Shown: positions 12,501 through 55,364 of the stretch, one piece after another
Position numbering within the stretch: the stretch's first letter is position 1
How the letters are laid out: each line of letters opens with the position of its first letter
Source: Zygnema circumcarinatum SAG 698-1b
Taxonomy: Eukaryota; Plantae; Zygnematophyceae
Reading direction: 5' to 3'
Assembly (NCBI GenBank): GCA_037447605.1
Contig: CM074820.1
Location: 1 to 64,000 of the forward strand
Length of the DNA: 64,000 nt
Notes under the pieces: generated by a model
What the model was told of the DNA's origin: nothing
Databases searched by the model: none
What the model saw: the letters and a program-made list of their open reading frames with translations, nothing else
Made by a program: the position numbers and the translations under genes

Positions 12501-12645
12501 CTAGAATTGAAATAAGTTCCTCATGCGAACAACTGCTCCCTCGCAAAACAAAAAACCGATAGTGTGTGAATTACCGGCTTTCAGGACTCCATCTGTAGCC
12601 ATAACCGAACGAATGGCGACACCGTGTTGCCGTGGAGCGCAGCAT
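6506..12645 (-). CDS. ALDH12A1: Mitochondrial delta-1-pyrroline-5-carboxylate dehydrogenase (P5CDH), about 15 exons
   Basis: Exon peptides FATLDPVEVS, DPLNGKVF, NFSGDQ|VRFLARSFAVPGSH, AIITPFNFPLEIPALQLMGALYMGNKP, LFTGSSRVAEKL, KLEDAGFDWKILGP, CDQDAYACSGQKCSAQS, EIFGPFQ, GAPQNHW, GDPRAAGIGTPEAIRLVWSSHREIIYD match plant ALDH12. Start ATG 12645 is inferred. Confidence 0.95.
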
Positions 12646-12871
12646 GATGGCAAAAGAGCGATAGAGGGGAGAAGTAAGAGGGGATTGGGAAGAACGGAGA
12701 GGGAAAGGGAGCAAGAGAGAGCGAGGAAGAGGGAGCGGAGAACGAGGCAAGAGGGCGCGAGAGCGCCAGTGGGACGCCACGTCGGCCAAAAGCGCACCGA
12801 CAAGAGCGAGGGCGAGGGCGAGCTGCCTGTCTGCTCGATCACTCGCGTGCTCTGAGCACGGCCAAGTCGCG
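12646..12871. promoter_or_regulatory. Candidate bidirectional promoter between ALDH12A1 and the GH79 gene
   Basis: Divergent start codons only about 226 bp apart; GA-rich leader and a CCACGTC G-box-like motif near 12777. Confidence 0.55.
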
Positions 12872-16746: not shown

Positions 16747-17475
16747 GCTCGCTTGCTGTGTTTGCTGTGAGGAACAGTCTGAGCATTGTTTGCGTGGGAG
16801 TTGTAAGCTAAACTACCGCTGGGCTTTTCCGAGGAAAGGATGGTGTTCGGACAAAATTTCTGGAATGTAGTTATAAGGTTTTGCTTGGGTAAGTATTTCT
16901 TGGGTAGCATACTTCATTTTTGGCACGTCGCCAGGAAACATTGTTGATTTAGAGCTTGTGTACCGGCTGGTAGATTTGGTACGAGACGAATAGGTGTTGT
17001 GTACCACCGGTAACAAAATGTGACGCAATTCAAAGTGACCAATGAGAGGCCGTTGGCGACCGGCTAATGATGGACCAACCTACGTGCAACATAATTGAAA
17101 GGTGTAATGTAAAGTTTGGATGAGCAAGAAATAGACTTATCCGCTTTGTTGACTTTTGCATTTACTCGATTCTATGGTTTTCTCCACTGATCTTATCGAC
17201 TCGCACAGTCGTTCCGCTCTCTACACAACAGTCGTCGTCCCTCAGACACAGGTACAGACAGGTTCAAACCTCCCCTCTGAGTGGTGGCGCTCCGCTTCTT
17301 AAGTCGCCCTCGTTCCCAGCCGCGACGGTCGGCATAAGACCCGATACATCAATACGATACGATACGATTCGGCGAGCTAGCGGACGGGGCCGCGAGGCTC
17401 GGGGCGGCGCAGCGCGGAGCCGCGCAGGGTCCGGCGCTGAGCTAGAGCGAGAGAGAAAGACGTCTCACGGCCGCC

Positions 17476-20400
17476 ATGGCCGCCCGCCGCGCCCTCCTGC
17501 CGGCCTGCGCCCGCGCGCTCGACTGCAGGCTATCGCCACCTCTCCGCTGCGGCTGCGCCTCTCTGGCATCGGGAGGAGCTCCGGCACGCACTGCGCTTCC
17601 GCCGTCACGGCGCGCAAACTTCCGCCTGTGCGCCGCAGGCATTGCAGGTAGCTACCATCGCCGTCGCCACTCTCATCACCGCTATTGCTGAAGATGCTTC
17701 AACCCTAGGCTTAGGCTGCATGCTTGTCACGAACGTTTGCCTTACGTGAAGCAGCCACCCTTACCGCGTCCAGTACGTCACGTATCCAATTCGCAACACA
17801 CTATCTTAATTGAAGTCCAAATCTGTACGTAGAGTTGGGGCATGTAGTAGAATTCGAATGGAAACGGCAATTCTTCTATACCGTTCAGGGACACTTTTAC
17901 TTAAAAAGTGGTAGCTAAGGATGGCAAAGCCCTTTTGTCAAGGGGCCTCCCATATAGGCACATATTGGACACGTTTGAACATCTTCATGTGGTATAGTTT
18001 GGTAACTTTACACTCTTGAGAACAGTGGTCGCTTGTTTGAGCGCCTGTCGCTTGGAATTGACGCTGCTTGCACGCAGTAGTGACAGTTGTCGCGCATCGA
18101 GCAGCGCGCGGACATGTTTTCATATGCGTGGGTCGCAATTTTGACAATTATACAGCGTTGTTGGTTTATCCAGATATTCGTCTCTTCCAACATCAAATAA
18201 TTGTGTAAGGCATGGACTTTGTAATGGAGGAAGGCAGGGTATCTTGAATCAATCTGAGGCTGTTCACATTGGCTTGTTTGCACTCTCTCATCATTAAGAT
18301 CCGATGCTTCGTTTCATACTGGCCCTATGGTAAACGGGGTAAGGAGCTCTCTGAGGCGAGTGAGAGATAAGGTCTCTTACGTCTTTCTTTCTCTTATTGT
18401 CTGGTATATGTTTTGCCATCTTCCTTTTCGAAGAATGCACAGAAGGTATTTTTTTGTCTTGGAGCCTCTTATTGTCGTTGGATATACGGGACGTTCTTTT
18501 TTTCTGCGTTCTGGACTGCCGATCCCTATAGCATTGCTGTTTGCCGGTTGCCATGCATGTCCATCAGAATGCAGGCTTTTGAGTTAATGTCAGTTGAGCA
18601 TTATGGACACTGCAGAGGCAGAGGCCGCGGAATTGACAAGCTCCAAAGGAAGACCGACGTTTTTATTTAGGGCGGCCTCTCTTAACACCGCCTCTGAGAC
18701 TGCTTCTACTCTTACCGATGATGACGATGAAAAGGTGCGAAAAACTTGTTTTGCACACAGCTGTAGGCGCTCTTGGTCAGGACTTGCCACTGCCCTCCTC
18801 TTCATCCCTTCACATAAGTCCTGATCCTCTTGCTACTGGTGGGTTTCTCGCTTTGCTTACAACAGTGTATGGTGCTCACAGACTATGTTGGAGAAGCTTC
18901 TGATTTGAGGGAACATGCTGCGTTTACGGTGGCAGCTGGAATTACTGGACCCTGATTTCTATCGTATGGGATACGTTCGGGATGTCCGCGCATACGGAGT
19001 GGAGTTCAAAGAGGGGCCGAAAGGAGTTGGAGTGTACTTCACAAATGATATTCCATCTGTTAAAGTGCCCCTTGTGAGTGGACTATCACAATTAATATTA
19101 ATATATTATATTAATATTGAAAGTTCTAACCGCCATCGTGGTGTGCTGACTGCTGTCTGTCCATTACAAGAGAAATATCATGTTAGAGGGAGTTCAAACC
19201 TTGCCGATGCTTACCTTGTAGTCTAGCTTGGTTCAATGTGACTCTTTAGCCGGGCTTCCTGTGGACCTTTCCACTCATGTAGTTGAGTTATAGCTGCCCA
19301 TGAACAGTAACTTTAAGGTCCAAGGCTGTAAAACTGCCAATAATGGCAGCACAAAACTGTACTGCCATGAAGTGGAAACTTATGGCTGTGTTCATTCCCG
19401 TGACGTATGGTGGAAGGTTTTTTGGTTTTCAGACGGTGCTAGAAATCCCGGTAGAAATAATGGTGACAGTGAGCAAAGAGCCTCCCTGGATTTTTCGTCC
19501 GGATTTTCTCCCGTTGGGGGATCCTCTCTTTCCCGTCATCAACTCTACAAATGCGGAGGTCAGGGCAACTGCTGCCTCTGCCAAAGATTGAGTTTTTTTG
19601 CAGCTCCTGCGTCTATTTGCTTTACTGGTTTTTGCATGTCGTTCCATTGCTTCTTTTTTCGTCTGGCAAGAATCAGTCGTCAAGGGCAGACTCACGATTC
19701 TCTTTAGACCTAACCAAAATATTGCATTGGTTACAAGTTGTCCGGCATGTACCCGTATCAGATTCATTGGAATTTATGAGAATACACTATCTTAAGGCCA
19801 CCAAGTGCCTTTGCGAGACTCAAACAGCTGTCGCTCTTTTCTCCCGTTTTGAGTGCGCTATTGTTTTGTTGCTTGCCTGCAGGCAGACTGGGACATACGG
19901 CTCGCATGCATGCTCTTGCTGGGACTCCATCAGGAGGGCAATTTTTGGCACTTCTATGGCGACTTCCTGCCGCCCTTGGAGGAATGCCCATCGCTTCTGC
20001 TGGCTACCCAGGTGTGGGGTTCAAAGCATTTCTGGAGTTGTCTTTCGCACCAGAAGCGATGACTTTCGACATGGACTTACGGGTTCTGCTGCTTCCTTTG
20101 AACGCTACTGTGCCTCTCTTGAGAGAACTTCTCCTTCGGAATGATTTTTTTTTCTTTCTTGTGGATGCATTATACTTCAGTGCGTTAAAGTCGTCCAATT
20201 TTCTGGAAGGGAACGCCATTGCTATAGCAGGAGATTAAGTGATGACTATATCGATTATTAGAGTCTCGTAAATCTCCGCCTAAGGATTGTGTCAAGTGGC
20301 AGGCCGAGCTTGCAGAGCTTGAAGAGCCGCAGTTGGAGCAGTACATGGCGGGCCAGCAGCGGCGTTTGGAGGCGTTCTGGGCGCAGCACTGGGTGGGGCC

Positions 20401-23400
20401 CTGACTCTTCTTATAACGTTTTTATCGATCAAATGTTTCAGTGGCGTTGGGCTCACTGATCCTTTTTCATGAGTTCGTATATTCTGCCAGAGTTCCGATT
20501 ATTAGAGCTATTGCAATCCAAGATCATGCAGATATATGGCAACTACGCTTCTGCAGATCTATGAGATTGCATCTTCTGAAGAACTCACATTTGTACTGCA
20601 AAATGACTTCTGCAAATATTGATTTTTCACCGTTCGTATATGTGGGTCGATATCTCTGGAGTCCTCCCTCTTGCAGATTCTTTTCCTGCTCTAAATTTGC
20701 ACGCAGTTTCTTGGAGATAGCTGGATGTATTTTCAGGCTGCAGACTATTATCACTCTGAGTTTAAACATCAACCTTTTTCTGTATGCCTTTAGTGCTGGA
20801 AAGAAGCGGGACAATATGCTCGATGGTGTCTTTTAGCATGCTAGGTTTGAGATGTAATCACTTTTACGGAGATACGATCATTCGTGCGTTCACACATAAA
20901 TTGTTTGTGGCATGGGTTAGCAGGCTTCTGCAGACGTTCCCTTCAACTTAGCACAGCTCTGCCAAAGTAAAGAGCAGTTCAAGTGGGCTGTGGCTCAAGT
21001 CTGGTCTCGGAGTCAGCTTGTTCATTGCATCTTTTCTTCCCTTCGACAGGATACACACCTGCTGTGTCCCTATGCAGGTGAGCACTATGGTCGAGCTCTA
21101 ATGCTTCGCAATCCCAAAATCCAATGCCACCTCACTCATGATCGCTTGAATGTCTTCCCTTGTCCCCTTGTATCAAATCTCGTCTGCAGACATGTTGAAC
21201 CATTCGTACGATCCCAACTGTGCCTTTCGGTGGCGAAAGCACGACCAGATGTTGGAAGTGTACATTATGGCGGGGCAGAGCATTCGAAAGGGAGACGAGG
21301 TGCTGCCATAGCTCTCACTTCTGCCCTCACTTGGTGGGAGAACCCTTCTTGACTATTTTCACTTGCAACGATCTCAGCTTGAGCTTGTTTTAGGTGTGAC
21401 CGTATGTCCTCCAGATGAAGGGGAGGGGAATTCCAAGGTGCTAGCTGTGGGAATCGCACAATTTGATTGAATGCACTGGATGTCGACCAGGCAGAATCTG
21501 ACTGGAATTACAAATCTCTCACTTATTAGTCTCTGTTTTTTTCCCGCACAAGAACGTGCTAGTGTATTGAGTTTGGAAGCTTTCAGGGTATGCACCAGTA
21601 ATTTTTCCACTATTTAACCCATCCACGAGGCTGAAGAATTCAGCTGCGTTGTGCTGCATCTGGTTTACCTTGTGTGCTTGCCAAAGTCTCGACTTTTAGA
21701 CACGTGATTCTACCTCCGTGATTCTTTCTGAAGCCATTCCTTGGACTGGCTTGGGCGAGCGCAGCTGACCTTCGCCTACGTGGAGCAGCAGCCCAACAGC
21801 GCGCTCATGCGCGACTTCGGTTTCTCTCTGCCACACGTGTGTCCCCATCCCTGCAAATTTTGCCTCTTCGTCGTCTTCGTTATTCTGTCATTACAAGAGC
21901 GTTCACAAGTGGTGTCATAGTGATTCTTCTGACTCCTACAACGGCGTCTAGTCAACAAATAGTTCAAGGAAGCACCACTTTTTCTGAACTGACATGGTTT
22001 CTACGCTTTGCACTTTGTATAGTTCCAATAATTCCAGGACTGTAGAGCGCTTTCTTGTTGTTGGAAATGATTGTGCAGAGCCAGTAAGTGAAAACATGCG
22101 ACTCATATGCAGCTTTTCTTGTTTTCTACCGGTAGAAGAAAAGAATCATGCTAAATCAATGGAAGTTGAAACAGAGTTCGGTTTATCGTCGTATGCTTAG
22201 TTAATGACGCCATCCGTTCTGTTATTGCAGAATGAATGGGAAGGAGTGGTATTTTCAGGGAAGTTCAAGATACATCGAGACTCATTTTTATCCACTTTCA
22301 ATATTTCTGGAATGTTCGACAACTATTACTTAAGAGGTATACGCTGAATTTGCGGCGTGCCTCGAATATGATGAGTACAGCAAGTACATATTCTAAAGAT
22401 TTCTGGAGGACTGTGTTCGGTATATGGGCCGAATGATTGCTGACTCCAGTCGTCACCCGGTCATGCCTTTGTTTCCCTGACTGATGCCGTGCCTGTTTGT
22501 CTGCCTGTCTATTTGTTGTTTCGTTTAGAGAGCGAATTTTTTTTGGAAGGTTCAATGCAGAAGGATATGCACTAATGAAAAGAAGGCCAGACATCATGGT
22601 AACCAAGAGTGGACTCGTCCTTTGCGACAGATAATGACGAGCAGCAGACGGACGGCCTCGGCCGTTGGATCATTGCGGCAGCGCGCACTCTCCCGATGTG
22701 GCACGACGGAGACATGCCTCCGCTTCCCTCGGAGGAGATCGCTGCTGTGGCTGGGATTCGAAGGGAGTGTGAAGCACTGTTGGCTGAGTACTCGACCACT
22801 GTGGAGGAAGACAGGAGACTGCTCGGTGAGCAATTCTTACAAAGAGTGGGGAAGAGATAAAGGATACCAACTTCTTTCTGGCCTGGCCAGACCACCTTCC
22901 TTAACAGTGCTGGTAAAGTTCAATTATGATAGAAATTGTCTGTTATAGGTCCTATGTCCATGTCCATGTTCATCGCATGCGACACGCCTGCGTAAATAGT
23001 CGATGGTTTCTATGCATATATCGAGAAGTGAAGATTCACCATAAATCCACCTCTCATGCCCAGAGGGAGCTTCACAGCCCTTGTTGTTATATCGTAATGG
23101 CAAGAGAGAGAGAGAGAGGGAGACAGAGAGAGAGAGAGAGAGAGTATTCATGACGACTGAAAGCTGGTGTTTCCTATCTGTTGTTTCTTTGCTGCAGAGG
23201 CTGGAAGCAGAGGCAAGTCAGAGCGCTGGAAGGTCATCATGAAGTGAGTGATTGCCTTTTACCGAACCCGTTTGCACTCAATTCTAGTGTTGAATGTCGT
23301 TAGCTCATGGTAGCTCAGCCAGACTGTGGCTTCGAATCCATTGAGGGCACCTTGTCCTTGTGGAGCATAGATGGGCATATGCCAATCCGAGATGCAACGT

Positions 23401-28773: not shown

Positions 28774-29992
28774 CGACAACACGGGACTGCACCTGCTGCC
28801 CATTCTATATTTCCATTCCTTGCTGGGAATCTTAAGCCCACTTGCTTCACGAGCAGTCCTCGGTTATCCCCCTGGACGAGGGCAGGGGACATGCGCAGGG
28901 TCGCATCTTCGCGCCCTGTTAACAGCCAAAGGAAATTCTTGAATGAAAGGCAGACAACAAGACAAGACAAACCGCACGCGAGTCCTCTTTTTGGTATTCT
29001 TCCACGTGCCGTTCCCTGGCTTAGTTGTGTTTCTCATGATTTGCAACCGGGAAGTCTGCCTGCAGTGTGTTCGCATGGTCGTTTTGGGTGCTCTCTTCAT
29101 CTGCAAGCTTTGTCTTGGTTCTGTCCACTCATAGCCCGAGGCTTTCATTGCAGAGCAAAGAGCAATATCCATGCCGTTCCTGATGCGGTACTAGTCCTTC
29201 TTCATACGTTTGGCTGGACCCTTGAAGAGATTGTTTCCGTGGCATTCAAGCTGTAAAACTCGGGCGTAGGTGAGAACATAGATCCGCCCAAAAGTTGTGG
29301 GGGACTAGGTCGGACCCACATAGCAGCTTTATGGGGGCTTCCGAGTGGAGAATATGCACTAGTTTTGAAATCATCAATCATATGGTGCTATTGTTACTTC
29401 CTAGCGATACAGACGGTGAGCACACATATCAATAGGATAAATGTGAACTTGAACTTAGAGCTCTTCCTCTTTGACAAGTCGTCTGCCTAGTTTCAACAGG
29501 ATTGCAGGCTTTGAGAACCTAAATTCTGTTACAGGGACCATGTAGCTATTGATATGAGCAGATGTGAGCTGGTTGATTATCTGTAGCCACAAGCCTTTGC
29601 ATAGAAAGAGCAAGAATCATTGTGCGTGCAGTGACAGTTACGACTAAGTAGCAAACGCGGTTTTGAAACATACTGGTTTCGAATGTTAAGTGCATCGCAG
29701 CAGTGGTGCTCCGACATGGCACAGCTCATCTGCTTCTCTTCAACTGCTACAGCAGGTTTACCTTTTTGGACTTAGAAGCTCTGTCTCTGTACAGCTTCGA
29801 GGGTTTTGTAGGTTTGAACCAAGCAGCGTTCGACCGTGTGGAATGCCGCCGCCTTTTCGCCTTCAGCGCTTGCACTGTGGACCTGTTGGGCTCGCAAGCG
29901 TTTTAAAACTGCTGCGCGTGGTCGTGACACGAGGCACAGACCTGTCCTTGCCGAGCAGCGCTGGCAGGAAAGAGAGGAGGAGAGCGAGCCGA

Positions 29993-31379
29993 CCAATGCC
30001 AATGCCAATGCCAATGCCAATGCCAATGCCAATGCCAATGCCAATGCCAATGCCAATGCCAATGCCAATGCCAATGCCAATGCCAATGCCAATGCCAATG
30101 CCAATGCCAATGCCAATGCCAATGCCAATGCCAATGCCAATGCCAATGCCAATGTGCCAATGCCAATGCCAATGCCAATGCCAATGCCAATGCCAATGCC
30201 AATGCCAATGCCAATGCCAATGCTAATGCCAATGCCAATGCCAATGCCAATGCCACCAATGCCAATGCCACGCCAATGCCAATGCTAATGCCAATGCTAA
30301 TGCCAATGCCACGCCACGCCAATGCCAATGCCAATGCCAATGCCACTGCCAATGCCTATGCCAATGCCAATGCCAATGCCAATGCCAATGCCAATGCCAA
30401 TGCCTGCCAATGCCAATGCCACTGCCAATGCCAATGCCAATGCCAATGCCACTGCCACTGTCAATGCCAATGCCACTGCCACTGCCAATGCCAATGCCAA
30501 TGCCACGCCAATGCCAATGCCATGCCAATGCCAATGCCACAATGCCAATGCCAATGCCAATGCCACGCCAATGCCACCGCCAATGCCAATGCCAATGCCA
30601 ATGCCAATGCCAATGCCAATGCCAATGCCAATGCCAATGCCAATGCCAATGCCAATGTTAATGCCAATGCCAATGCCAATGCCAATGCCAATGTGCCAAT
30701 GCCAATGCTAATGCCAATGCTAATGCCAATGCCAATGCCAATGCCAATGCTAATGCCAATGCTAATGCTAATGCCACGTTAATGTTAATGTTAATGCCAA
30801 TGCTAATGCCACGCCAATGCTAATGCTAATGCCACGCCAATGCCAATGCTAATGCTAATGCCAATGCTAATGCTAATGCCACGCCAATGCCAATGCCAAT
30901 GCCACGTTAATGCCAATGCTAATGCTAATGCCAATGCCAATGCCACGTTAATGTTAATGCCACGTTAATGTTAATGCCAATGCTAATGCTAATGCTAATG
31001 CTAATGCTAATGCCAATGCCAATGCTAATGCCAATGCTAATGCTAATGCTAATGCCAATGCTAATGCCAATGCCAATGCCAATGCTAATGCTAATGCCAC
31101 GTTAATGCTAATGCCACGCCAATGCTAATGCCAATGCCAATGCCAATGCCAATGCTAATGCCAATGCCAATGCCAATGCTAATGCTAATGCCAATGCCAA
31201 TGCTAATGCCAATGCCACGTTAATGCCAATGCCAATGCCAATGCCAATGCCAATGCCAATGCCAATGCCAATGCCAATGCCAATGCCAATGCCAATGCCA
31301 ATGCCAATGCCAATGCCAATGCCAATGCCAATGCCAATGCCAATGCCAATGCCAATGCCAATGCCAATGCCAATGCCAA
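29993..31379. repeat. (AATGCC)n hexamer array, about 1.4 kb
   Basis: Pure blocks at both ends; centre has AATGCT, AATGTT, ACTGCC, ACGCC and ACGTT variants. Confidence 0.98.
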
Positions 31380-31568
31380 CGCCGATGGTGATGATGTCAT
31401 TCTCCTCCGTACGGCAGCGCAGAGGGCCGCCCCCCAGCGAGCGAGCGCGCTCACGGCGGCCGCGATCGCGCGATTGGCTGCGACGGGTCATGAGGCCATG
31501 GAGCCATATATGATGCGGCCATCTCCCTCGCGACGACCTCGAGTTGAGGAGGAGCCAGAGGCAGTGCG

Positions 31569-43181: not shown

Positions 43182-46100
43182 ACAGATCGACTTTTCTACG
43201 TGTCAACTGCACTTATCTGCTGGCGGGACAGATTGCTCCTTCCCCATCATCCTCGAGTCCTTTGCCACCTCCACCTTCCCCAAACGACACGCCACGGCGC
43301 AGGTCTCCTACCCAGAGATCAACATGTACCATGCGGTCGGCAGTCCCCATTCTTCCTATGGATCTGCCAATTCTGATACCGAGGACGAGACTCCCCCTCC
43401 TCCAAGTCCAGCCCTCTGTGCGCCGACGGAAGACCTTTTGCCGCCGGTGATAGCTACACCCAACTTTCCCGCCCACGAGACCATCAGTGATGAAGAGTGG
43501 CTGAAGATAGAGGGACAGATGCGATTGGGGCTAGTAGTACTCTCAGACCCAATCAAGCATTCGCAACTGCGACAAGTGCTGCGCCGCAATCACCTAGTTT
43601 TTGCCCGCCATGCACTCGACATCGGAAAGACCCACCTGATTGAGCATCACATCGATACGGGAGATTCCCCCCTAGTGATGACCATGACCCCTTATCGCTT
43701 TTCCGCTGCTCAACAGGCCGATGTCGAAAGACAGATCGATGAGAATGTGGCTGCCGGATTGATGGAACCTGGAGAAGGACCTTGGGCCAGCCCGGCCGTT
43801 TTGCCACCAAAGCCGGATAAGTACCACTTCGCCTCGCGGAGACTATCTGAACCGAACGCAGTTGGACGGCGGGATCCCTATACATTGCCGGATGTGACTC
43901 ATCCTCCACGGCGCCTGGTTTACCAGCCCTCAAGACGGATATGCGGTCCCTCCTCGCGTATCCTTTTGGCGCATGTAAAGTCATCGCCGCAGCGACAGGC
44001 TTCGCACGCCACACGCCAAGCAGCGGGATGCTTCCCTTTGGGCTCAAGAATTCCAGCCAGACTCACCAGCGCCTGGCCAACCAGGTGTTCGGCCCCTGTC
44101 GTGCCTTCTGCGAACCTTACGTGGATGATGCTTCCCTCCACAGCAAGGATTGGTCCTCCCACCGCAACATTGACTAAGTAACGCAATCGCCATCAAGGCG
44201 CTACTAAGATCGCCTCAAGAAATGCAGTTTCGCCAATGTGAGATCAATACTCACCTGCATATCGCCTTGGCATCACTCTGGACCGCCATCACTGCATAAA
44301 AATCGAGGCCATCACCTCATGCTGCCTACGTAACCTCACTCAGCTCAAATCTTTCTTGGGACTCACCTCATTCTATCGCCGGTTCATCAAGGGTTATGCC
44401 CTTATCGCGCGTCCCCTACATGCCTTGGAGAAACACGGAGTCCACTACGAATGGAGCCGAGCGCAGGATCTGTCCTTCCATGCGCTCAAGAGTGCCCTCC
44501 TTCAGGCTCCTTGTCTGCATCAATTCGACCCCACCCTGCCCGCAATCATTGACGCCGACTGGAGTCAGACGGGCTTTGGGGCAATGGCCACCAAGCATTC
44601 TTCCGATGGAACACCGTCAAGCATGCTAGCGTGGTCCTGCTCGAAACTGAGACCAAGATGTTCTACGCAGGGCGCGGCACGCTATTCTCCGGGCACTGGT
44701 ATTTAAGCTCTTACAACCTACCCCATTGTCATTCGGACTCCACTCCACATGCCACTCACTTGGCCGCACATCATGGTTACCCTACGCACCCCAAGTTTGC
44801 ACGCCGCGACGGCGCCGAGGAGTATAATGTACTCAAGGTCACTCACCGTCCCGGACGGAGCCACGGCAATGCAGACAGCCTCAGTCGAAATCCTTCGGCT
44901 CCACTCCTCTGTCACGATCCGGCCGTTCCTGAACCCATCCCCCCACCTACCCTCTTAAACCCTGAGCATCTTCCCATCGAGATTTTTATTGCAGATCAAG
45001 ACCTGCATGATGTCATATTCGCCGATGGGCTGATTGATATTCCGGCCACGGCCACCACCCTCCATCGCTGGCAAGACCCTGACTTCACCCACGGCCACCC
45101 TCATGCGGATCCTTGGGAACTCCTCATGGATGACGACGGCGAAGCTCCCTTTCTTCCTCCCCACTTCCCCAGTGCCAATGACGTTCACTCTGACTCCTCT
45201 CTTCTGCGTTACGTCATGACTCACACACTGCCCCCTTTTATCACTGACACCGAGAGGGCTCGGCTGCTCCGCCGCGCTCGGAACTTCTCTGTTGATGATG
45301 ATGGTTAGATTCTCTACCTCCCCTCCGGCCTTCCTGTTCCTTTCCCCAACGAGCGCATGGAGATCCTGGATGTCGCCCACTATGCCCAGCCTGCCGGATT
45401 CCACCTTGGCCAGAAGAAGATGGTCGCCATGCTGCAGGAGCGCTATTACTGGCCCGGACTCCATGGCGCAGTGAGCCGATACGTCGAAACTTGCACCCGT
45501 TGCCAACGCGGCAAGCGCTCTGCTCCCTTCGACCGCCAACCCCTAGAGATGGGTGAGATCCCGATACAAGGCGTTGCAGAAGATTGGAACATTGACACCT
45601 TTTCTATCCCCCAGCTCGGCACCCCCTCTGGCTACATTCGGGTATTCCTAGCAGTGGACAGATAAACCAAATGGGTGGAAGTTCACGCGACAGAATCTAA
45701 GCACTCAGTCCACTCTGCTCGTCTCCTGACGGCCATCATTCACCGTCACTCTCTCCCCTACTCTGTTCACTCTGACAATGGCACCGAATACAAGGGGGCG
45801 TTTGCCAAGCTCATGCAAGACTTCCGCATCATTCACCGCACCTCTAGCCCCTACTCCCCCTGGCAGAATGGGCTTGCAGAACGTACCATACAGACGGTCA
45901 AGGATGCGTGCGTTCGCGGCTGCGCGGAGCTGGAGGCGGACTGGCGCGAGGTCATCCCCTCACGGTCTTCACTTACAACACTTGATTTGCACTCCTCCAG
46001 CGGCTTCTCCTACGAGCTCCTCACATGGCCGAAGTAAGCCACGCATTCCCACATGACCTCCTCTTTCTGTTGTTGACCCCTCTTCCACGATGGCCTCCCG

Positions 46101-46369
46101 GTCGGGTAGCCCAACCCGGCTCGGCCCTCGGCTTCAAACCCTAGATTCCATGGCATCCCACCACCTCGAACGCGCGCACAGACAACAACTCACTGACTTT
46201 GGGAGGCGCCGACGCGCTGCTCTCCCGCCCAATCAGGTCGCGCCACGTCAGCTCATTTGGCTCAGGAATCTCGCCAAACCAACTCAACGGGCTTTTCCGT
46301 GGTTGGGCCCCTTCATTTGTGTCGGTCCGTCGGAGATCCCAGGCTGGGCCATCATTTCGGAAGGCCCTG
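43182..46369 (+). pseudogene. Disrupted pol (RT-RNase H-integrase) of the middle Gypsy element; integrase tail resumes at 53632-53720
   Basis: IEHHIDTGD, GPWASP, PFGLKNS, YVDD, FLGLTSFYRRFIKGYA, ADWS, HRPGRSHGNADSLSR, HHCC zinc finger (H..HLG..YYWP..CTRC), VHSDNGTEY, QNGLAER, WLGPF; several frameshifts and stops. Confidence 0.9.
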
Positions 46370-47084
46370 TGTAGCGAAACGCTACAGTCACCCCAAGGGG
46401 AAGGATTACTTAAAGCCCGGCGTGGCCTTATGTTTACATCCAATGCATTACCTAATGGTTAGGGCATCGGATACCCTATAGGACGATGGAGGTCCTAGGT
46501 TCGAACCGTAAGAACTGGTTCACACGTGGGGGCACCACATAGTCACGGTGCGCCCCACATCACCCGCCAAGGTCCCCTCCTCGACTTAAGGGAGGATTGG
46601 GGATTAACGGCACCACGGGGATCCATCCGGGTCCCGCTGACCGGGATCTCGCCGCTGTCCGATCCCCTTTTGGAATTCCGGCCGGCCGTCTGCATAAGCA
46701 TGCGTTACCGGTTGGGTACGCGACGGGTTTTATTAATCGCACTCCTCATGTGGTCAGCGCGCTGGCCAAGGAATGCGGCGAATGCTCAGACAGATAATCT
46801 CCTCAATCTACGTCGAGAGACACGCCGCAGTCACATCGGGATGTTTCGCCTAACTCTCCATGCCGTAGAGGTTCAATCTGGGAAGCATATAGTGGGCTTA
46901 GGGACCGCTCGGGCCACCCAACCAATGCATCGGCATTCGGTTGCACCTCGCCTCTGTGTGGTCGCCAATCCTCTCGCTTTTCTCTCTCTCTCTCTCACAC
47001 TTTCTGACTGTGCGCCGAAAGCAGGCCGAGAGAGATTCCGGGCCAAGTAAGACCCAGGGGGATTAGCCCCCATGGCCCGCTACA
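46370..47084 (+). repeat. 5' LTR of the chromovirus
   Basis: Starts TGTAGCGAAACGCTACA, ends GCTACA; first about 235 nt nearly identical to the sequence from 52884. Confidence 0.9.
46448..46511 (+). promoter_or_regulatory. tRNA-derived A-box/B-box (Pol III type 2 promoter-like) module in the LTR; second copy at 52963-53026
   Basis: TTACCTAATGGTTAGGGC (D-arm/A-box-like), AGGTC variable loop, CTAGGTTCGAACC (B-box GTTCRANNC). Confidence 0.6.
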
Positions 47085-47344
47085 AGCAGTATCGAGTCGC
47101 TAAGGCGGGCGCTTCGAAAAGACCTAGTGGGTCATGGTGACCACTCACGCCGGAGGGGACCCGGGCCCCCTGCCGCCATCTTCCACCACCCGGCCCCGAC
47201 GTGACGGGGAGAACTCTGAGATCAGCAAATCTCCTACGAGGGCCCGGGCCCCCGAAGCCCACCGATGACCAAGGTCATCCGTGAATGCCGCCCTCCTTCG
47301 GGTAAGCACCGGAGCCGTTGGCTCCGGCAGACTCCGCCGATCCC

Positions 47345-48650
47345 ATGATCGGGGCCCACATCACGGTGGGCGCGTCCTTGAAGATGAAGAAGAGGATCGA
47401 CGATCTAGGAACGGATGTAAGGCAGCAGCGCGTCTCCACCATGGCCTGTTCGAGGAAGGTGGACGACATGGAGCTCACGGTCCGCCGCCTGGTGGACACG
47501 CTCCAAATGGAATTCAGGGGCCTTTCAGACAGGCTTCGGAGGATCGAGGAAGGTATGCCCCACACCCCCTCAGCCAGAGGCAAGTGGATGCAAAGCAGTC
47601 CTCGGGAAGGGGTTAGCATACCACTCCGCCGCCATTACCGACGCCCCAACCGCCGCCGGAAGTACCGGGTAGCAGCCCGCCCCCCTCGCCTCCTCAACAG
47701 GGGAGTCACCTCCACCTGGTGTAGGGCGAACCACCAAATAGCAGGGGACCCCCATCCGGGCAACCGGGCCGGGCGGGCGGAGGAGATCCCAGCCCTCTGG
47801 ACGCCCTCCAAGAACCTTACCGGGAGGATGCCAGAATCGGGCCAAAGTGGCCCCGCTTTCCTTCTGGGGTGAACATCCTAACACGGACTGCTCCATCGAG
47901 CAGTGGTTGGGTCAAACGAAGGGTTACCTTCTTGCGACCAACTGTCCCCCCCTCCAGTGGGTAAGCTTTGCTTACCCAGCACTCAAAGGAGCCGCATACC
48001 GTGTGTATGAGGGTCTCTTTGATGAGATTGGGGACGATTGGGATAAGTTCAGAGATGAACTCATCAAACACTTTGGGGCCTTGGATCCTGGCTTGGAGGC
48101 CCGGGATAAATTTCAGAACATGGTCCAAACCGGCAGCGTCAAGCAGTTTCTGCGAGACCTGCGACAGGTGGTGCCACAAATCACCACCCACAAGCCTGGT
48201 CAGGCTGAGTTCTTTTTCCACTTCAGGAATGGCCTTAAACCACACCTGAGGAAGCAGCTACGGACTAACCCACGGACTCTGAAACCGTGGGACCCCGCTG
48301 ACTCTGAGCTGTACTTTGATGCAGCCATTCAGTTGGACACCGCCCCTGCAGGCGATGCAGGCCCTTCCCGACCCCAGCAGAGGTCGGGCGACGTGACAGG
48401 GTCGTGGAAGGCGGGACCCTCAGCTCCTGCCAAGATGGCAGGAAAGAACAAGCGGAAGCAGCCGGAAGCGACTGCCCGCCTAGCCACTGCAAGGCCGCAG
48501 AAGTTGACTCCAGAGGAAATGGAGAAGATGCAGCGGGAGAACAAGTGTTTCCGCTGCCGCAAGGAGGGGCACAAGGCCCGGGATTGCCCCCTGAATGCTA
48601 AGGACAGGAAGGGCAAGGGACCGGAAAACACCAACCCACCAGCAGTTTAG
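47345..48650 (+). CDS. gag: Chromovirus gag (one apparent frameshift near 47600-47850; start approximate)
   Basis: Coiled-coil N-terminus, capsid motifs (WDKFRDELIKHF, QTGSVKQF, FRNGLKPHLR), CCHC knuckle CFRCRKEGHKARDC. Confidence 0.85.
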
Positions 48651-48666
48651 GAGTCCCTGCTGGTGG
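48623..48666 (+). promoter_or_regulatory. Putative -1 programmed ribosomal frameshift signal (gag to pol)
   Basis: G_GAA_AAC heptamer in the gag frame, 6-nt spacer, perfect 10-bp stem CCACCAGCAG/CTGCTGGTGG enclosing the gag stop. Confidence 0.65.
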
Positions 48667-51600
48667 AGAGAATAGGTTAGGGGATGGGACGAAAGCTGCC
48701 GTCAAGGTTAAGGGACTTTTGTGGCTTAGGACCACGGACATTCTTAAACTGATGGGCAGACCTTTGGGGGTGCACGATCTTGTTGTGTGTCATGCGCTCC
48801 CTGATTTCATGTCTCTTTTTCTGCCACCGTGGTGACTCCCTCTAGGTTTATGGATGTAATGATGCGTGGCCAGTGGCATGTTTCAATTCTCAATGTTATG
48901 GGGGATGAAATCTTGATGAGATGTGCCATGGATGCCTTGCATGTCTTGCGGGATACTTCCCACATCCTTGGGCTGCATGTGCTGGTTCCTCAGCACATGG
49001 CAGTTCGCACCTTTCCCAACGCCACTTGGCGGTTGGTGAAACAGTTGAGGAAAGGGCACGAGTTGGTGCAGACGATGGAAGGACCCACCAGTTCGCTGGT
49101 TGGATCCCCCTACACCTTGGTGTGGAGGACGGCTCGTCCTCAACCCTCGCATATAGTGCGATCTTTGTTCCATCTTGCCCATCGTGCCATGACCTTCACC
49201 GGGTCAGCCAATGGCCACCCAGCAGTCATACTGCTAGATACTGGGGCAGATGCTAACTTTGTTAGTTCTGCATTCACCCAGAGATTTGGGTTGACCACAG
49301 ATCCCCATTCGGAAAGTGTTACTTTCGGGAACGGACGCAAGGGCCAAATCTCTGGTAGTGTCACACTCAAGATCAAGCTCCAGTCCTACTCCGGGGCAGT
49401 AAAGTGTCTTTTGACACAACTGGCTCCGAGTACAGATGTTATTTTAGGGAGTGCTTGGTTAACCATGGTCAAAGCCCAATTGGATTTTTCCATCCCACAC
49501 TGCATTCTGCACAGAGGGGATAGGCGCATCACCCTGCACCCTGGCAAACCCACTGCTATCACGCAGGTTGATACTCCTTATCTCTGCTCGGCCGTGCAAT
49601 TGGCCAAAGCTGTTAAGGAGGGTTGCACCTTGTTCATGGTGCATGTCATGACAGCCACTGAGGATGTGCATGACGAAGATCAGGAATGGCAGATCACATC
49701 TACGGATGTGCTCTCGGCCGTTCCACCCAAAATCCAACCTCTGTTGGATGAGTTCAGGGATGTTTTCCCTGATGACCTCCCAAGAGGGTTGCCACCGTCT
49801 CGAGGAGTCGGGCACACCATCCTCAGCTCGAAAGCAAAAGCCGCCTGGGCGGCCGACGCATCGCTAAGTCCTAAGAGATGCGTAGCTAAATTGGCAACTT
49901 TATTTGACAAGGTAATGGATAAAGCAGCCGTAGCCCCTTTGGGGCTCTGATCTTGTTCTGCCGGGAAGCCAAAAGTGCATGGGTTTGTTGAGATGCATTG
50001 ATTATCACAAGCACTCAACAAGATCACCGTAAAGAACCGTTTTTCTTTACCACGTATTGATGATCTGTTGGATCGTCTTCACGGCGCCAAGGTGTTTACA
50101 TCACTTGATCTTGCTCGTGGTATTATCGATCCGCGCCACGGAAGTCGATGTGCCAAAACTGCCCTGACATTGGTCATTTCCAATATAAGGTGTTGCCCTT
50201 TGATTCGACTAATGCCCTACGACTTTCCGTGTCAGAATGAATCCAGATGTCTACTCCAAGATGGACGAAGTTTGTTTTGGTTTACCTCGATGATATCCTT
50301 GTCTTCAGTAAGACAGAGGAGGAACATCTTGAACACGTTCGGAAAGTGTTTGAGGTACTGAGGACGAACCAGTTTTATGCCAAGAGAAAGAAGTGTCACT
50401 TCATGCAACGTGAGTTGCTATATCTTGGGCATATTCTCAATGATCAGGGCCTTCGGCCAGATCCTGCCAAGGTTTCTGCGGTAGAAACTTGGGCGCCACC
50501 GACTGACTTACATCAGTTGCGGTCATTCTTAGGATTTGCGAATTATTTCCGTAAATTCATCCAAGGGTTTAGTAAGCTGGTTACTCCCTTGACCAATTTG
50601 ACGCGTTCCGGTGTCCCCTTTGTATGGACCCCTGAGTGCCAGGAAGCATTCGAGGGTGTCCGCCATGCACTTGTTACCGCACCTACTCTCCGTTTAGCGG
50701 ACCCGTCCAAACCTTATGAAGTGGTTTGTGATGCTTCGGGATTCGCCTTGGGTGCCGTCTTGTTTCAGGATGGTCAACCTCTGGCGTATGAAAGTCGCGA
50801 AAATGAATCTCCGCTGAAGCGCAACTATTCTCGCAATTAACAGAACCGCTATAAAGGGTCTACCGAGGACATGGCGTTATTTGAGGGGCGAAGCGTCACG
50901 CTGTCACGACCACGCCGGCCGACGCCTTTCCGACTCCAACACCTTGTCTAGGGCGCAAGTGCACGCCGTCTGAGTTCCTCCAAAGGTTTGACCGCCAAAG
51001 GGGTTTATCGAATTTAAGGTTGGAATGTACATCTAATCGAAAGCAAAAGTGCTCTGCGATCTTGCCCTGATGGTGCTACTGCTTCACTCGAGTGTTGGTG
51101 GAACTTAGATGACAGAGGTGAGGGGCCGCCAACCCCGAAGCCCTCGCCTCCAAAGATGCTTTTGTCATAGATCCTCCACCAAGACGCAGCCACCTCCTCG
51201 CCTCTCGACCTCGCATTTGATGATTCAGAGGGGTATACTGGGTGATCCTTGTTCCTCGGATGGCCAAGGTAATGGCTATAAGGACAAAGTGGTGTCTAAG
51301 GACGGATTTTGGTACCACGGCCAGCAGTTGGTCGTGCCCAAGGCCGGGACTGTACGGCAGCTCATTCTGAGTGAGTTACATGATCCTCCGCATCGTCACA
51401 TGGAGTTGCCAAAACCCGCGAGGCACCGCCTCCGTGAGTTCGGGTGGCCTCGACTCTGAGAGGGACGTGTGGAAAGCGATATCCTCGCTTGTCCAACTTG
51501 TCAACGAAACAAACCCCGCACTGGCAGGATCCCTGGCCAGCTGCAACCCCTCACACCTCCTTTTCGGAAATGGGATAGTGTGGGTATGGACTTGATCACG

Positions 51601-52849
51601 GATCTTCCTGTGACACCTCGGGGGCATGACTCCATCCTCGTCTTTGTCGATCGGCTCAGCAAGATGGTGCATTTTGCACCAACTACTAAGACCGCTGGGG
51701 CCGACGAGATTGCACGGTTGTATGTTGACAAAGTGTGGAGCCAGCATGGTCTTCAGTCAGAAATTGTGTCTGACCGTGATCCACGATTCACCGGCCATTT
51801 TTGGACGGAAGTGCTCAAAATCGTGGGGACCAAGCAGGCGTTGAGTACAGCTTTCCACCCGCAAACCGATGGCCAGACGGAACGGGTGAACAGGATCCTG
51901 GAGGATTACCTCCGGCATTATGTGGGACCCACCCCGGATGGGTGGGATGAACTGCTCCCAGTGGCAGAGTACGCCATCAATAATGCTTTCCAGGAGTCCA
52001 TTGGTACCACCCCTTTCTTCCTGAACTTTGGGCAGCATCCCCTAAATCCCCTGCAACCAAGGGATCAGCCCCCGACCAGGAACATGGGCGCCTGCCGTAA
52101 CTCCCCGATCCTGGAAGCCGAGAGGAACTGGACATGGGACCTAACCTCCCTAGCCAGATCTTTGTCCGCTAATGTCTCGAGGCCAAAAAGGGCACGGCAG
52201 ACCTCGCAGCGCCTACAAAAGGCTCTATAAGCCGACGCCACCTGCACTCCAACTCACCTTCAAAGAGGGCGATGAGGTGTTGCTGAGTACGGCGAACTTG
52301 AGACTCAAAGCTTATGGCGGAACACGTAAGCTGTGGCCCCGCTTCATCGGACCCTTCAAGGTCGTGAAGCGCATCAATGAGGTCGCTTACCAGTTGGATT
52401 TACCAGCCCATATGAAGGTGCATCCGGTCTTTCATGTGGGATTGTTAAAGGCCTACCGTAGCGATGGGAGGATCCAGCCACCTCCCCCACCAGTGGAACT
52501 TGAGGGTGAACTTGAGTATGAAGTTGAAACCATTCAAGCCCACCGTATTGTGAGAAAGGGTCGATCTTCCCGTCACGAATACCTCGTGAAATGGTTGGGC
52601 TATGGGGTTGAACATAGCACATGGGAAGCCGAGGGCAACTTAACCAATTGCCAGGAGCTCATCAACTTGTACTGGGAGGCGCAGGCCGCAGGAGAGCGGG
52701 CGAGGGCGGCTCGGGGGGTTCCTGAGCCGTCCCCGCGCAACTCGGAAAGGGACTTGACCGGGATTATCGCTGAGCCCTCCCGGTTATCACGTAGAGTTCG
52801 ACGCGTGCCGTTGAAACTACGAGCTGCCTTTACTACCCCACACACGTGA
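48623..52849 (+). pseudogene. pol: Chromovirus pol: extra domain, protease, RT, RNase H, integrase, chromodomain (frameshifts may be assembly errors)
   Basis: [125 protein letters not shown]. Confidence 0.92.
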
Positions 52850-52883
52850 ACGAGGGCGTTCACATTCTCACAGGGGGGAGTAA

Positions 52884-53626
52884 TGTAGCGAAACGCTACA
52901 GTCACCCCAAGGGGGAAGGATTACTTAAAGCCCGGCGTGGCCTTATGTTTCCATCCAATGCATTACCTAATGGTTAGGGCATCGGATACCCTATAGGACG
53001 ACGGAGGTCCTAGGTTCGAACCGTAAGAACTGGTTCACACGTGGGGGCACCACATAGTCACGGTGCGCCCCACATCACCCGCCAAGGTCCCCTCCTCGAC
53101 TTAAGGGAGGATTGGGATTACCCACCACGGACCCATCCGTCCCGCTGATTGATCTCGGCCGCGGCCCCGATCCTCTTTTTTTGGCTCTGGCCAGCCGTCT
53201 CGCATAAGCACGTTACCGCTGGTACGGACGCGGGCTGACCGACCCGCCGCGCGGGCTGTAGGGATCCGCCGCGGTAATCGACGGTCTCGGGCGCTGGGCC
53301 AAGGTCATGCAGCGCGCCGCGAATGCGGCGAGCCAGATGTTGTACACCTCCACCCATTCGGGTCGAGAGACATGTGGCAACCGCCATTGAGTTTCAAGGC
53401 CTAATCCTCCATGCTGGTAGGAGGTTCAACGGGGGAAGCATATAGGGGCGAGGGGGACTGTCGTCACCCAACCAACGTACCGGCATTTGGTTGCACCCCT
53501 GCCCAGGGCTGCGCCAACCTCTGAAGCTCTCTCTCTCTCTCTCACTTTCTTGATTCAGGCGCTGAGTGCAGGCTGAGAGAGATTCCGCGCAAGACCGAGG
53601 GGGGATTAGCCCCGCGGTCCGTTACA
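52884..53626 (+). repeat. 3' LTR of the chromovirus
   Basis: Follows the PPT; ends GTTACA followed by the TSD CCCTG. Confidence 0.9.
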
Positions 53627-55364
53627 CCCTGACTCTAGTGGAAACGCCCGGCGCTGGTGTTCACACTGGATTGACATTCGTGCCGCCACGTCAGCGGTTC
53701 CTCCCCCCCGCGATGGCTGACCGTTTGCGACCGACAGCGCGGCCTTCTCCGTACCCCCCCTGCCATGCCGACTCCTCATTGGTCCATTTCTAATTCCTGC
53801 CACTTTTTGCCACTTCGCCAACATTTCGCCAGCCGGCCGTCTCTTCCGNNNNNNNNNNACTGTCAGTGATAAGTAGATGGGATGTCAGTGATGCTAGTTT
53901 GTCTTTTAGTGCTGGGCTTAGTATTTGTATTTGCTGTGTGGTTTGTTGTCTTGCTCTTCTTTTTCTGCCTCTTCAGCTCCAGCAACAGTTGCTAAGTGAG
54001 AGGGAGAGAGAGAGAGTTCCATTGCATAAAGAGAAAGAGAAAGAGTCTTCTTGCTGATAGCATTTAGACATCCCATTCAGCCCAGCCAGACAAAGATTTC
54101 AGTGAGAAGACACTTTCATTGTAATGACAATCCCCAGCCAATCGCTGGCTGGGGTGAGTTTCCAAAACACAACCTTTATCTAAGCTGAGTCCTATTTTCC
54201 CTTTGCTGTCACTATGCCAAGCTACCATCTTGTGATATCCTGCCTTACACTCTTCCCAATGACCGATGATAACTAGAAGTCTAGCGAAGAGAATAGCCGA
54301 AGAGAGGACAGGGGAAGAGAGCCCCCAAGGAAGGGCTCTTTGCGCATCGAGTCCAGCCGCCGGTGGGAACATCTTCAGAATCCCTACGTCTTCCGCTGCG
54401 CGTACCTCTGAATCCCCCGGATCCTGGCTCTATGCTGCAGGCAGACCCACAACACCAACACAACCCTTCATCAGTTTCAGCACGGACGCGCGAGTGGCCG
54501 TACACCACCTGCAACTAGCTCAGCACTCTCCCCTTAACCCCACTTATCTTGTGCTACATCCGTCTGGTTCACTCTGTCTGCTCGTGCTCGACCGTACATG
54601 CGTACCGCATAATACCGTACAGTCGTACGACCATACGACCGTCCGACCGTACATGTTGTAAAGGCGTTGTAAAGTAATATATATCAGCCGTTATCTAGTC
54701 GTCACAGTTGTATAATATAATATATATTATATAGTCGTAATTAATCCATCCCTACTCGCAGTGCACACTAGAACGAAATGTCGTGTACCCTACAACCAGT
54801 TAGGGCGAGAAATCGAACTTTTTTTAGCTTAATTGTTCAATGGTCAATTGAAAAAACAGAAAAAAAACTCAGTCGATCGTTTGAACAGTTGGATCGAATG
54901 TTTTGGAGCTTGAGAACTTGAACAACATGAAAGAAATGCTAAGAAATTCGTGTGGGTTCCAAATTTTGCCCGTAAAATTCAAGCAATCTGAGGAATTTTC
55001 TTACCTCCGGTCCAACTTTCACCGTACGAACTTTTTTTATCAGATCAATTGTTACCGTACGGTGCAAAATAGATTCCACCACCTTATGGCAATGGAAACC
55101 AGAAGCGGGTCCAGCGCTTTGCCACCTGCCAGAATCTCATTGTTGATCGGTGGATGCGAAATAAATCGAAATTGAACGCGACTCGGAGTTAATTGTTCAA
55201 TGTTTGACTGGATTCGCATTGAAAAAGGACTCGTTTCTTAGAAAAAAACAGAAACAGAAAGCAGAAACTGTTTTTTTTTCTGAACTGCGGTTTTGAAAGT
55301 TTATTTTTTTTGAGAAGTCAAAATCTTTAATATCTTATGTGTTCAACCTAATTGGTTCGAGGGT

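What the first reader, a model, noticed from the sequence alone, without database searches (positions are those of the whole stretch)
46440..46672. tRNA-derived Pol III promoter module built into both LTRs of a chromovirus
Seen: about 80 nt into each LTR the parts of a tRNA gene occur in the correct order. These are a D-arm (CCT-AATGGTTA-GGG, A-box-like TTACCTAATGG), an expanded anticodon-type hairpin (CATCG..CGATG), the variable loop AGGTC and a T-arm with an intact B-box (GGTTCGAACC, 46498-46507; 53013-53022). There is no acceptor stem. Two more hairpins follow, and the first T-run lies about 160 nt past the B-box (T4 at 46668, T7 at 53176). Known: Cassandra TRIMs carry 5S-derived Pol III promoters in their LTRs and SINEs use tRNA heads; I do not know of a characterised tRNA-headed autonomous chromovirus LTR. 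Inference: the LTR may make a roughly 230-nt structured Pol III RNA, or recruit TFIIIC as an insulator or anti-silencing device for an element that targets heterochromatin.
Basis: partly seen in the sequence, partly recalled or inferred. Interest (0 to 1): 0.8.

Follow-up and report, generated by a model that had tools for sequence, protein, structure and literature searches.

The report
tRNA relic in chromovirus terminal repeats
Both end-repeats of an abundant, once protein-coding jumping gene carry the worn middle of a tRNA gene whose B-box promoter motif shows no variant among the copies sampled while the tRNA fold is lost, so it likely serves as a DNA docking site for the RNA polymerase III factor TFIIIC, an arrangement we found described only for small non-coding elements.

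Summary
The element is a 7.26-kb Ty3/gypsy chromovirus (46370-53626, TSD CCCTG; this copy is frameshifted). Both LTRs hold a tRNA-like stretch beyond chance. D-loop plus variable-loop/T-loop score 27.7 bits against profiles of real tRNAs; the next best site in the window scores 5.8, real tRNAs a median of 31.9. It is not a tRNA-shaped RNA: no Rfam, ARAGORN or covariance-model hit, and all arms have pairing probability near 0. Best reading (0.38): a captured tRNA/SINE head kept as a TFIIIC-binding DNA element. Rivals are a roughly 220-nt Pol III RNA (0.22) and a passenger (0.22). No expression or binding data exist. tRNA-derived LTRs are known in non-autonomous Helenus TRIMs; here the module sits in a full-length chromovirus. 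This scan noted similar chromovirus LTR boxes in other genomes (unchecked notes). New variant of a known kind.

The parts
46365..46369 (+). 5' target-site duplication CCCTG
   Evidence: loose ends show other copies of the flanking repeat running on from here into the sequence found after 53631, i.e. the empty site
46370..47084 (+). 5' LTR, 715 nt, TG...CA
46448..46465 (+). tRNA D-loop relic (positions 8-25); positions 11-26 tRNA-like, positions 8-10 (5' half of the A box) decayed; G at 46448 in most family copies
46460..46470 (+). alternative A-box-like motif TAGGGCATCGG (TRG-NNN-A-NN-GG), 28 nt before G53; closer than in tRNA and partly a by-product of the D-arm 3' strand
   Evidence: P about 0.01 in 30 nt, motif chosen after the fact
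46466..46489 (+). former anticodon arm, about 6 nt longer than in tRNA (G18-G53 spacing 42 against 34-38); not paired; no U33
46490..46507 (+). variable loop AGGTC plus T-arm with the B box GGTTCGAACC (46498-46507, a perfect palindrome); no variant row in the B box
46526..46558 (+). hairpin 1
   Evidence: pairing probability 1.0; z -2.46 for 46526-46600
46566..46611 (+). hairpin 2, with a loop that varies among subfamilies
   Evidence: loose ends at 46582
46668..46671 (+). first T run (T4) after the B box, candidate Pol III terminator
46885..46892 (+). TATA-like GCATATAG kept in both diverged LTR halves (53438 in the 3' LTR); candidate Pol II core promoter, inferred
47085..47100 (+). degenerate primer-binding-site-like stretch (TATCGAG core); no self-priming complement of 7 nt or more in the LTR
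   Evidence: tRNA-Met type inferred from recall
47742..52849 (+). gag, zinc knuckle, protease, RT, RNase H, integrase, SH3 and chromodomain, broken into several frames
52872..52883 (+). polypurine tract
52884..53626 (+). 3' LTR, 743 nt; 98-100% identical to the 5' LTR over the first ~230 nt, 45-78% per 50-nt block from LTR position 251 on
52963..53022 (+). tRNA relic in the 3' LTR (B box 53013-53022)
53176..53182 (+). T7 run at the place homologous to the 5' LTR's T4
53627..53631 (+). 3' target-site duplication CCCTG

Best explanation
Both LTRs of this high-copy chromovirus carry, 80-140 bases from their start, the D-loop-to-T-loop middle of a tRNA gene with an intact B box, a decayed A box and no tRNA fold, and this relic likely works as DNA, as a TFIIIC docking site upstream of the LTR's predicted Pol II promoter. 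Shown: tRNA-like primary sequence in the right order, loss of the stems, no B-box variant among the laid contigs, and loss of the first half of the A box in most copies. Inferred: the piece was captured once, probably as a SINE head, and then copied to both LTRs by reverse transcription. TFIIIC would bind the B box, as at B-box-only TFIIIC sites of yeasts (recalled), and would keep the promoter region open or bound it off from the heterochromatin that chromodomain integrases are thought to target (recalled). Little or no Pol III transcript is needed. Pol III cannot make the genomic RNA, because 18 T runs of four or more lie between the module and the 3' LTR's T run.
For: Joint profile score 27.7 bits, next site in the window 5.8, real tRNAs 5th/25th/50th percentile 11.8/21.0/31.9. 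V-loop/T-loop block p=1.3e-7. The 17-mer spanning variable loop and B box occurs 6 times in the viral collection: 3 of 6 in ARAGORN tRNA genes and the other 3 in what read as tRNA 3' halves. Cloverleaf arms have pairing probability about 0 and no covariance-model hit, so what is kept is sequence, not fold. Variant rows: 4 of 57 module positions against 26 of 114 flank positions (p=0.010, rows); 7 of 57 against 33 of 114 added (p=0.021); 0 of 10 in the B box. Positions 8-10 fail in the family. T runs rule out Pol III for the long RNA. Helenus shows the same promoter-kept, fold-lost pattern (PMC10886601).
Against: No binding or expression data. The high-depth plateau starts about 28 nt upstream of tRNA position 8 (52935), so conservation is not confined to the module; against the upstream flank alone the contrast is p=0.095 with both lays. 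The variant tables come from short contigs filtered at 80% likeness, are not independent observations, and depth is not copy number. The profiles were trained on prokaryotic and phage tRNAs, not host tRNAs. AGGTC and the D-loop are also kept, which a bare B-box site would not need. 0 of 89 distant chromovirus 3' regions carry such a module, so it is not a general need of these elements.
Confidence: 0.38

Rival explanations
1. The module is a working type-2 Pol III gene inside the LTR. It uses the shifted A box at 46460-46470 with the B box, starts near 46440-46450 and ends at the T run, giving a roughly 220-nt hairpin RNA that would act as a small-RNA precursor or silencing decoy, like the Pol III miRNA cassettes in foamy-virus LTRs.
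For: The T run sits at the homologous place in both diverged LTR halves and no T4 lies before it. The 46440-46672 fold has z -2.85, with 2 of 200 shuffles as stable. Hairpin 1 has probability 1.0, and a subfamily contig differing at about 9 places can still close its outer stem (by eye). The alternative A box has P about 0.01. Precedent: SFV LTR cassettes depend on A and B boxes (PMC3993851 passages).
Against: The canonical A box is lost. The alternative one lies 28 nt before G53, against about 34 in tRNA, and is partly a by-product of D-arm sequence. The 5'/3' closing helix predicted in the 5' LTR (p about 0.75) is not predicted in the 3' LTR. The 3' half of the unit is only 73-78% alike between the two LTRs.
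Confidence: 0.22
2. A passenger: an old tRNA or SINE insertion was fixed in the LTR of the family's ancestor and rides along. Its apparent conservation reflects a generally conserved LTR start and recent amplification of one subfamily.
For: The plateau includes non-tRNA sequence upstream. A box, acceptor stem and all stems have decayed. Kojima notes that 'not a few' Repbase LTRs resemble part of a tRNA. Absent from 89 distant relatives.
Against: 0 of 10 B-box positions and 1 of 18 V/T-block positions show a variant, against 33 of 114 flank positions. The V/T block still scores about as well as a median real tRNA (20.3 against 20.9), although the LTR subfamilies differ by 25-50% downstream.
Confidence: 0.22
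3. The sequence is kept for a role in the Pol II genomic RNA, as a dimerisation or packaging signal built on the palindromic GGTTCGAACC and the neighbouring hairpins. tRNA ancestry supplied the raw material and no Pol III factor is involved.
For: The B box is a perfect 10-nt palindrome with CCTATAGG nearby. A long helix encloses the whole unit in both LTR 1-400 folds (p 0.92-0.94).
Against: Palindromes of 10 nt or more occur 0.7 times per shuffled LTR. The enclosing helix beats shuffles only in the 3' LTR (1 of 200; 5' LTR 67 of 200; 14 comparisons made). Half of the palindrome is predicted to be tied up in a local hairpin.
Confidence: 0.1
4. The module is kept by a short non-autonomous partner, a Helenus-like TRIM or a free SINE, that shares the first ~160 nt of this LTR and is transcribed by Pol III; the long element merely shares it.
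For: Laid depth over the first 160 nt (45,000-125,000 in X1) far exceeds that over the downstream hairpins (8,000-21,000) and the internal leader (about 1,000-6,000).
Against: No loose end with foreign flanks is listed at the module's borders (51 and 16 loose ends were not shown). No direct repeat longer than 6-7 nt flanks the candidate SINE. Subfamily divergence and solo LTRs explain the depth equally well.
Confidence: 0.05
5. Chance resemblance to a tRNA.
For: No Rfam or covariance-model hit. nhmmer gives only E 0.24-0.28 in the window, ranked behind an unrelated site. The D-loop block was chosen after the fact, and the D-loop 18-mer fell in tRNAs in 0 of 4 viral matches.
Against: 0.017 expected for the V/T block alone, multiplied by 0.002-0.14 for the D-loop at the right spacing. 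Nothing above 17.4 bits in 697 kb of other retroelement loci, both strands.
Confidence: 0.03

Closest known systems
Helenus TRIMs / TRIMp3 (Kojima 2024, PMC10886601; parts 1-5 of 6 of the text read, supplement passages searched)
   Same: tRNA-derived sequence in both LTRs, with promoter boxes kept and tRNA function lost; YGG of box A and GGTTC of box B are present. By eye, the V-loop/B-box 20-mer matches the Selaginella Helenus-1_SMo LTR at 17 of 20 letters, as expected from shared tRNA ancestry.
   Different: Helenus elements are non-coding, 311-1263 bp, and most keep TRGCY in box A; in the LTRs seen in the supplement passages the tRNA part lies near the LTR end. Here the element is 7.26 kb with gag-pol-chromodomain, the LTR is 715-743 nt, the module is near the LTR start, TRGCY is lost, and Pol III cannot make the genomic RNA. 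The paper expects autonomous partners to use Pol II and not to share TRIMp3 LTRs.
Cassandra TRIM (5S rRNA in the LTR; known here only through PMC10886601 and search listings)
   Same: A small-RNA-gene-derived Pol III promoter built into both LTRs.
   Different: 5S (type 1) promoter, non-autonomous, and Pol III makes the transposition RNA.
Simian foamy virus LTR Pol III miRNA cassettes (PMC3993851, passages read)
   Same: An autonomous retroelement whose LTR holds A/B-box units followed by hairpins and T runs inside a region also transcribed by Pol II.
   Different: A retrovirus of animals; the passages read do not describe the cassettes as tRNA relics; shown experimentally, whereas nothing is shown here.
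B-box-only TFIIIC sites (ETC in budding yeast, COC in fission yeast) and SINE-borne TFIIIC insulators (recalled; search listings only)
   Same: Intact B box with a weak A box; proposed chromatin-boundary role.
   Different: Those are host loci or SINEs, not a module copied in LTRs; binding is untested here.
Chromovirus clades Chlamyvir and Tcn1 (Neumann 2019, PMC6317226, passages read)
   Same: Ty3/gypsy order with a CHD chromodomain; the named integrase hits in the list are from Closterium (47-48%).
   Different: The passages read mention no tRNA-derived LTR segment; the clade was not placed on a tree here.

Membership tests
Chromovirus (Ty3/gypsy) | gag-PR-RT-RH-INT order with C-terminal chromodomain | tested here: met
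   Pfam
Chromovirus (Ty3/gypsy) | TG...CA LTRs, PPT, 5-bp TSD | tested here: met
Chromovirus (Ty3/gypsy) | intact coding capacity (autonomy) of this copy | tested here: not met
   domains spread over at least five frames
Chlamyvir clade | groups with Chlamyvir references on an RT-RH-INT tree; algal host | not tested
   no reference set held; host not identified (inconclusive)
tRNA gene | cloverleaf with acceptor stem; covariance-model score | tested here: not met
tRNA-derived sequence | D-loop and V-loop/T-loop consensus in order at tRNA-like spacing | tested here: met
   spacing is 6-7 nt longer than in tRNA
Type-2 Pol III promoter | B box consensus | tested here: met
   11.9 bits; no variant row
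Type-2 Pol III promoter | A box at the tRNA register | tested here: not met
   0.0 bits in this copy; T8 is G in most of the family
Type-2 Pol III promoter | any usable A box upstream of the B box | tested here: inconclusive
   TAGGGCATCGG at 46460-46470 scores 2.6 bits, short spacing
Type-2 Pol III promoter | downstream T4+ terminator | tested here: met
   T4 and T7 at homologous places
Type-2 Pol III promoter | TFIIIC/Pol III occupancy and transcript | not testable with these tools
   only assembled contigs available, no raw RNA reads
Helenus / TRIMp3 | tRNA-like sequence in both LTRs with YGG and GGTTC | tested here: met
Helenus / TRIMp3 | short, non-coding element (up to about 1.3 kb) | tested here: not met
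   7.26 kb with coding domains
Helenus / TRIMp3 | TRGCY in box A | tested here: not met
tRNA-SINE insertion | own TSD and free-standing copies | tested here: inconclusive
   no direct repeat above 6-7 nt; no other copy in the window; genome not held
Retrozyme (ribozyme-bearing LTR) | hammerhead, twister or HDV ribozyme in the LTR | tested here: not met
   no ribozyme family at E<=10 in either LTR

The most novel reading that the evidence does not exclude
A protein-coding chromovirus family has domesticated a tRNA-gene promoter inside its LTR and uses it against host silencing: every copy and solo LTR docks TFIIIC and makes a roughly 220-nt Pol III hairpin RNA, the retrotransposon counterpart of foamy-virus LTR miRNA cassettes, scattering many Pol III/insulator sites through the genome.
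Probability: 0.2. Interest if true: 0.8.

Novelty: new variant of a known kind. Interest (0 to 1): 0.5.

Why it matters
Pol III promoters in LTRs are described for short non-coding TRIMs, where Pol III makes the transposition RNA. The Helenus paper argues that autonomous partners should not share such LTRs. A tRNA-derived B box kept in the LTR of a full-length chromovirus cannot serve that purpose, so if it is functional it points to a second use: TFIIIC-based protection of the promoter of an element that inserts in silent chromatin, or a Pol III small RNA. That makes a standing question, how heterochromatin-targeting retrotransposons stay expressible, testable with one 10-bp mutation. If it is a passenger, it still shows the SINE-into-LTR capture step proposed for the birth of TRIMp3 elements.

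Tried and rejected
No whole genome is held, so copies could not be aligned; family variation comes only from contig lays. Run search: no RNA holder listed, and run X22 laid nothing; neither says anything about expression. Zero depth beyond about LTR position 270 is uninformative. Exact-pattern scans for the module found 0 matches in the viral and metagenome collections. A single-protein locus search gave no relative. Of 121 related loci, none shares LTR sequence by blastn. 89 had 400 nt or more downstream of the integrase and were scored; the other 32 were left out as too short or without a tblastn anchor. Best joint scores were 11.6 sense and 12.5 antisense. These relatives are distant (29-57% protein identity) and their LTRs were mostly not delimited. 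ARAGORN at lowered thresholds gave only noise. One training tRNA had been found through the LTR word and was dropped (it is still). The apparent depth peak over the module is partly an artefact of private letters in the 5' LTR; one search shows a wider plateau. Twister or other ribozyme (lead from earlier notes): no Rfam support. Landing-pad idea: no listed loose end points to insertions just upstream of the module (lists cut). Self-priming: no complement of 7 nt or more. Host identity: atlas hits to streptophyte clusters with a recognition value below its threshold and no homologue by search, so it is unresolved. Literature searches (listings only) showed no paper on a tRNA-derived module in the LTR of a full-length chromovirus; the library lacks most subscription journals and Repbase reports.

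Full report
The element. The finding lies in the 5' LTR of a Ty3/gypsy retrotransposon spanning 46370-53626. Both LTRs begin TG and end TACA, the 5-bp target duplication CCCTG flanks the element, and a polypurine tract precedes the 3' LTR. Pfam finds gag, zinc knuckle, protease, RT, RNase H, integrase, SH3 and a chromodomain, so 'chromovirus' is right, but the coding region of this copy is broken into several frames. The family is abundant in public runs of one organism (20 rows from 8 studies hold part of it). The host was not identified; named integrase hits are from Closterium and a neighbouring gene gave weak streptophyte hits. No genome is held.

Is the tRNA likeness real? Standard tools see nothing. 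ARAGORN finds 0 genes. Rfam gives no tRNA match at E<=10 on either LTR or on the 96-nt module. A covariance model built from 90 tRNAs fetched here gives no plus-strand hit with filters off. nhmmer ranks the two LTR sites second and third in the window at E 0.24-0.28. Sequence-only profiles, which do not punish lost pairing, give a different answer. tRNA positions 44-61 (46490-46507) score 20.0 bits, p=1.3e-7 per position, 0.017 expected in both strands of the window; the B box alone would be unremarkable (4 expected). Positions 11-26 score 12.4 bits, P=0.0007 within the allowed spacing, or 0.0024 with the family's majority letters; I chose that block after seeing that positions 8-10 fail. Jointly the two LTR sites score 27.7 bits, the next site in the window 5.8, real tRNAs 11.8/21.0/31.9 at the 5th/25th/50th percentile, and nothing in 697 kb of other retroelement loci exceeds 17.4. 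The 17-mer over variable loop and B box occurs 6 times in the viral collection, 3 in called tRNA genes and 3 in apparent tRNA 3' halves; the D-loop 18-mer fell in tRNAs in 0 of 4 matches. The profiles are prokaryotic and phage, not host. I put tRNA ancestry at about 0.95.

What is wrong in the observation. The arms are not structures: D, anticodon and T stems have pairing probability about 0.00 in both LTRs, and 46440-46530 folds no better than shuffles (z -0.96). The perfect CATCG..CGATG stem needs T at 46487, which is C in the 3' LTR and in 99-100% of laid depth. Its first T (46448) is G in 86-99% of depth in three DNA-type runs and 94% in the second lay, taking positions 8-26 to -2.0 bits. 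A second A-box-like motif lies at 46460-46470, 28 nt before G53; it is closer than in tRNA and partly follows from D-arm sequence.

Conservation. Variant rows fall on 4 of 57 module positions against 26 of 114 equal-length flank positions (p=0.010), and 7 of 57 against 33 of 114 added (p=0.021; against the upstream flank alone p=0.095). The B box has 0 of 10 and the V/T block 1 of 18. Laid depth in run X1 is 87,000-126,000 from 52935 to 53024 and falls to 8,000-21,000 over the downstream hairpins. These figures come from short contigs filtered at 80% likeness, depth is not copy number, and the plateau starts about 28 nt upstream of the tRNA part. They suggest selection on the B box but do not prove it. 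The module is lineage-specific: 0 of 89 scored 3' regions of distant chromoviruses reach a comparable score (best 12.5).

Downstream unit. Hairpin 1 is certain (p 1.0), hairpin 2 has a variable loop, and the first T run lies at the homologous place in both diverged halves. The 46440-46672 stretch folds better than 198 of 200 shuffles, but its overall fold differs between the LTRs. No flanking direct repeat above 6-7 nt marks a SINE insertion and no ribozyme family matches. Eighteen T runs of four or more lie between the module and the 3' T run, so Pol III cannot make the genomic RNA. A TATA-like motif followed by a conserved hairpin and CT tract at LTR position about 515 is the likely Pol II core promoter (inferred).

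Mechanism. Sequence kept, fold lost, B box intact and A box half lost is the pattern expected of a DNA element read by TFIIIC. I commit to a captured tRNA or SINE head retained as a TFIIIC docking site upstream of the Pol II promoter (0.38). That TFIIIC binds, and that it shields the promoter, are inferences from B-box-only sites in yeasts (recalled; search listings only). Rivals: a roughly 220-nt Pol III RNA from the shifted A box (0.22), a passenger (0.22), a genomic-RNA signal using the palindromic B box (0.10), upkeep by an unseen TRIM or SINE (0.05), and chance (0.03).

Comparison with what is known. Helenus TRIMs (PMC10886601; parts 1-5 of 6 read, supplement passages searched) already have tRNA-derived LTRs in fungi, animals and Selaginella, with boxes kept and tRNA function lost, and the paper proposes SINE insertion into an LTR as their origin. 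It analysed only elements under 1 kb at the screening step, notes that 'not a few' Repbase LTRs resemble part of a tRNA, and expects autonomous partners not to share such LTRs. This element fails Helenus membership on length, coding content and box A. Foamy-virus LTRs show that an autonomous retroelement can hold working A/B-box cassettes (PMC3993851, passages). Chromovirus clade features are from PMC6317226 (passages). My searches listed no paper on a tRNA-derived module in a full-length chromovirus LTR. Unchecked notes of this scan report tRNA-type boxes in chromovirus LTRs of other genomes; they gave leads and are not support.

Verdict. Real feature, tRNA-derived, partly misdescribed, function untested. 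New variant of a known kind; interest 0.5, rising to about 0.8 if TFIIIC occupancy or a Pol III RNA with an anti-silencing role is shown.

Noticed in passing
window 46370-47084 vs 52884-53626: The two LTRs are 98-100% identical for about 230 nt, share private letters there, and are then only 45-78% alike per block, yet the TSD is intact. This suggests reverse transcription from two co-packaged subfamily RNAs, or conversion of one LTR half. Contigs continue as the 5' LTR version (loose end at 53116).
   Followed up: partly
window 46919-46943 and 53469-53493: A hairpin about 30 nt after the TATA-like motif is kept in both diverged LTR halves and forms a second depth peak, followed by a CT tract; candidate R-region signal.
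   Followed up: partly
window 45309-46369 and 53632 onward: The element is nested in another high-copy retroelement, just downstream of that element's integrase domains.
   Followed up: partly
window 46404-46424 with 46719-46738; 52918-52941 with 53246-53267: A predicted long helix encloses the tRNA relic and the T run in both LTRs; it beats shuffles only in the 3' LTR.
   Followed up: partly
window 1-1220 and 29920-31490: Degenerate short-unit repeat array, and a 12-nt-period tandem array.
   Followed up: no
window 1416-2194: Nested inverted repeats (149 nt at 88%), possibly a foldback or MITE-type element.
   Followed up: no
L077 (about 730 nt after the integrase end): A distant chromovirus locus has a T-arm-like block of 17.8 bits; the matching place in L055 has a broken B box.
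   Followed up: no
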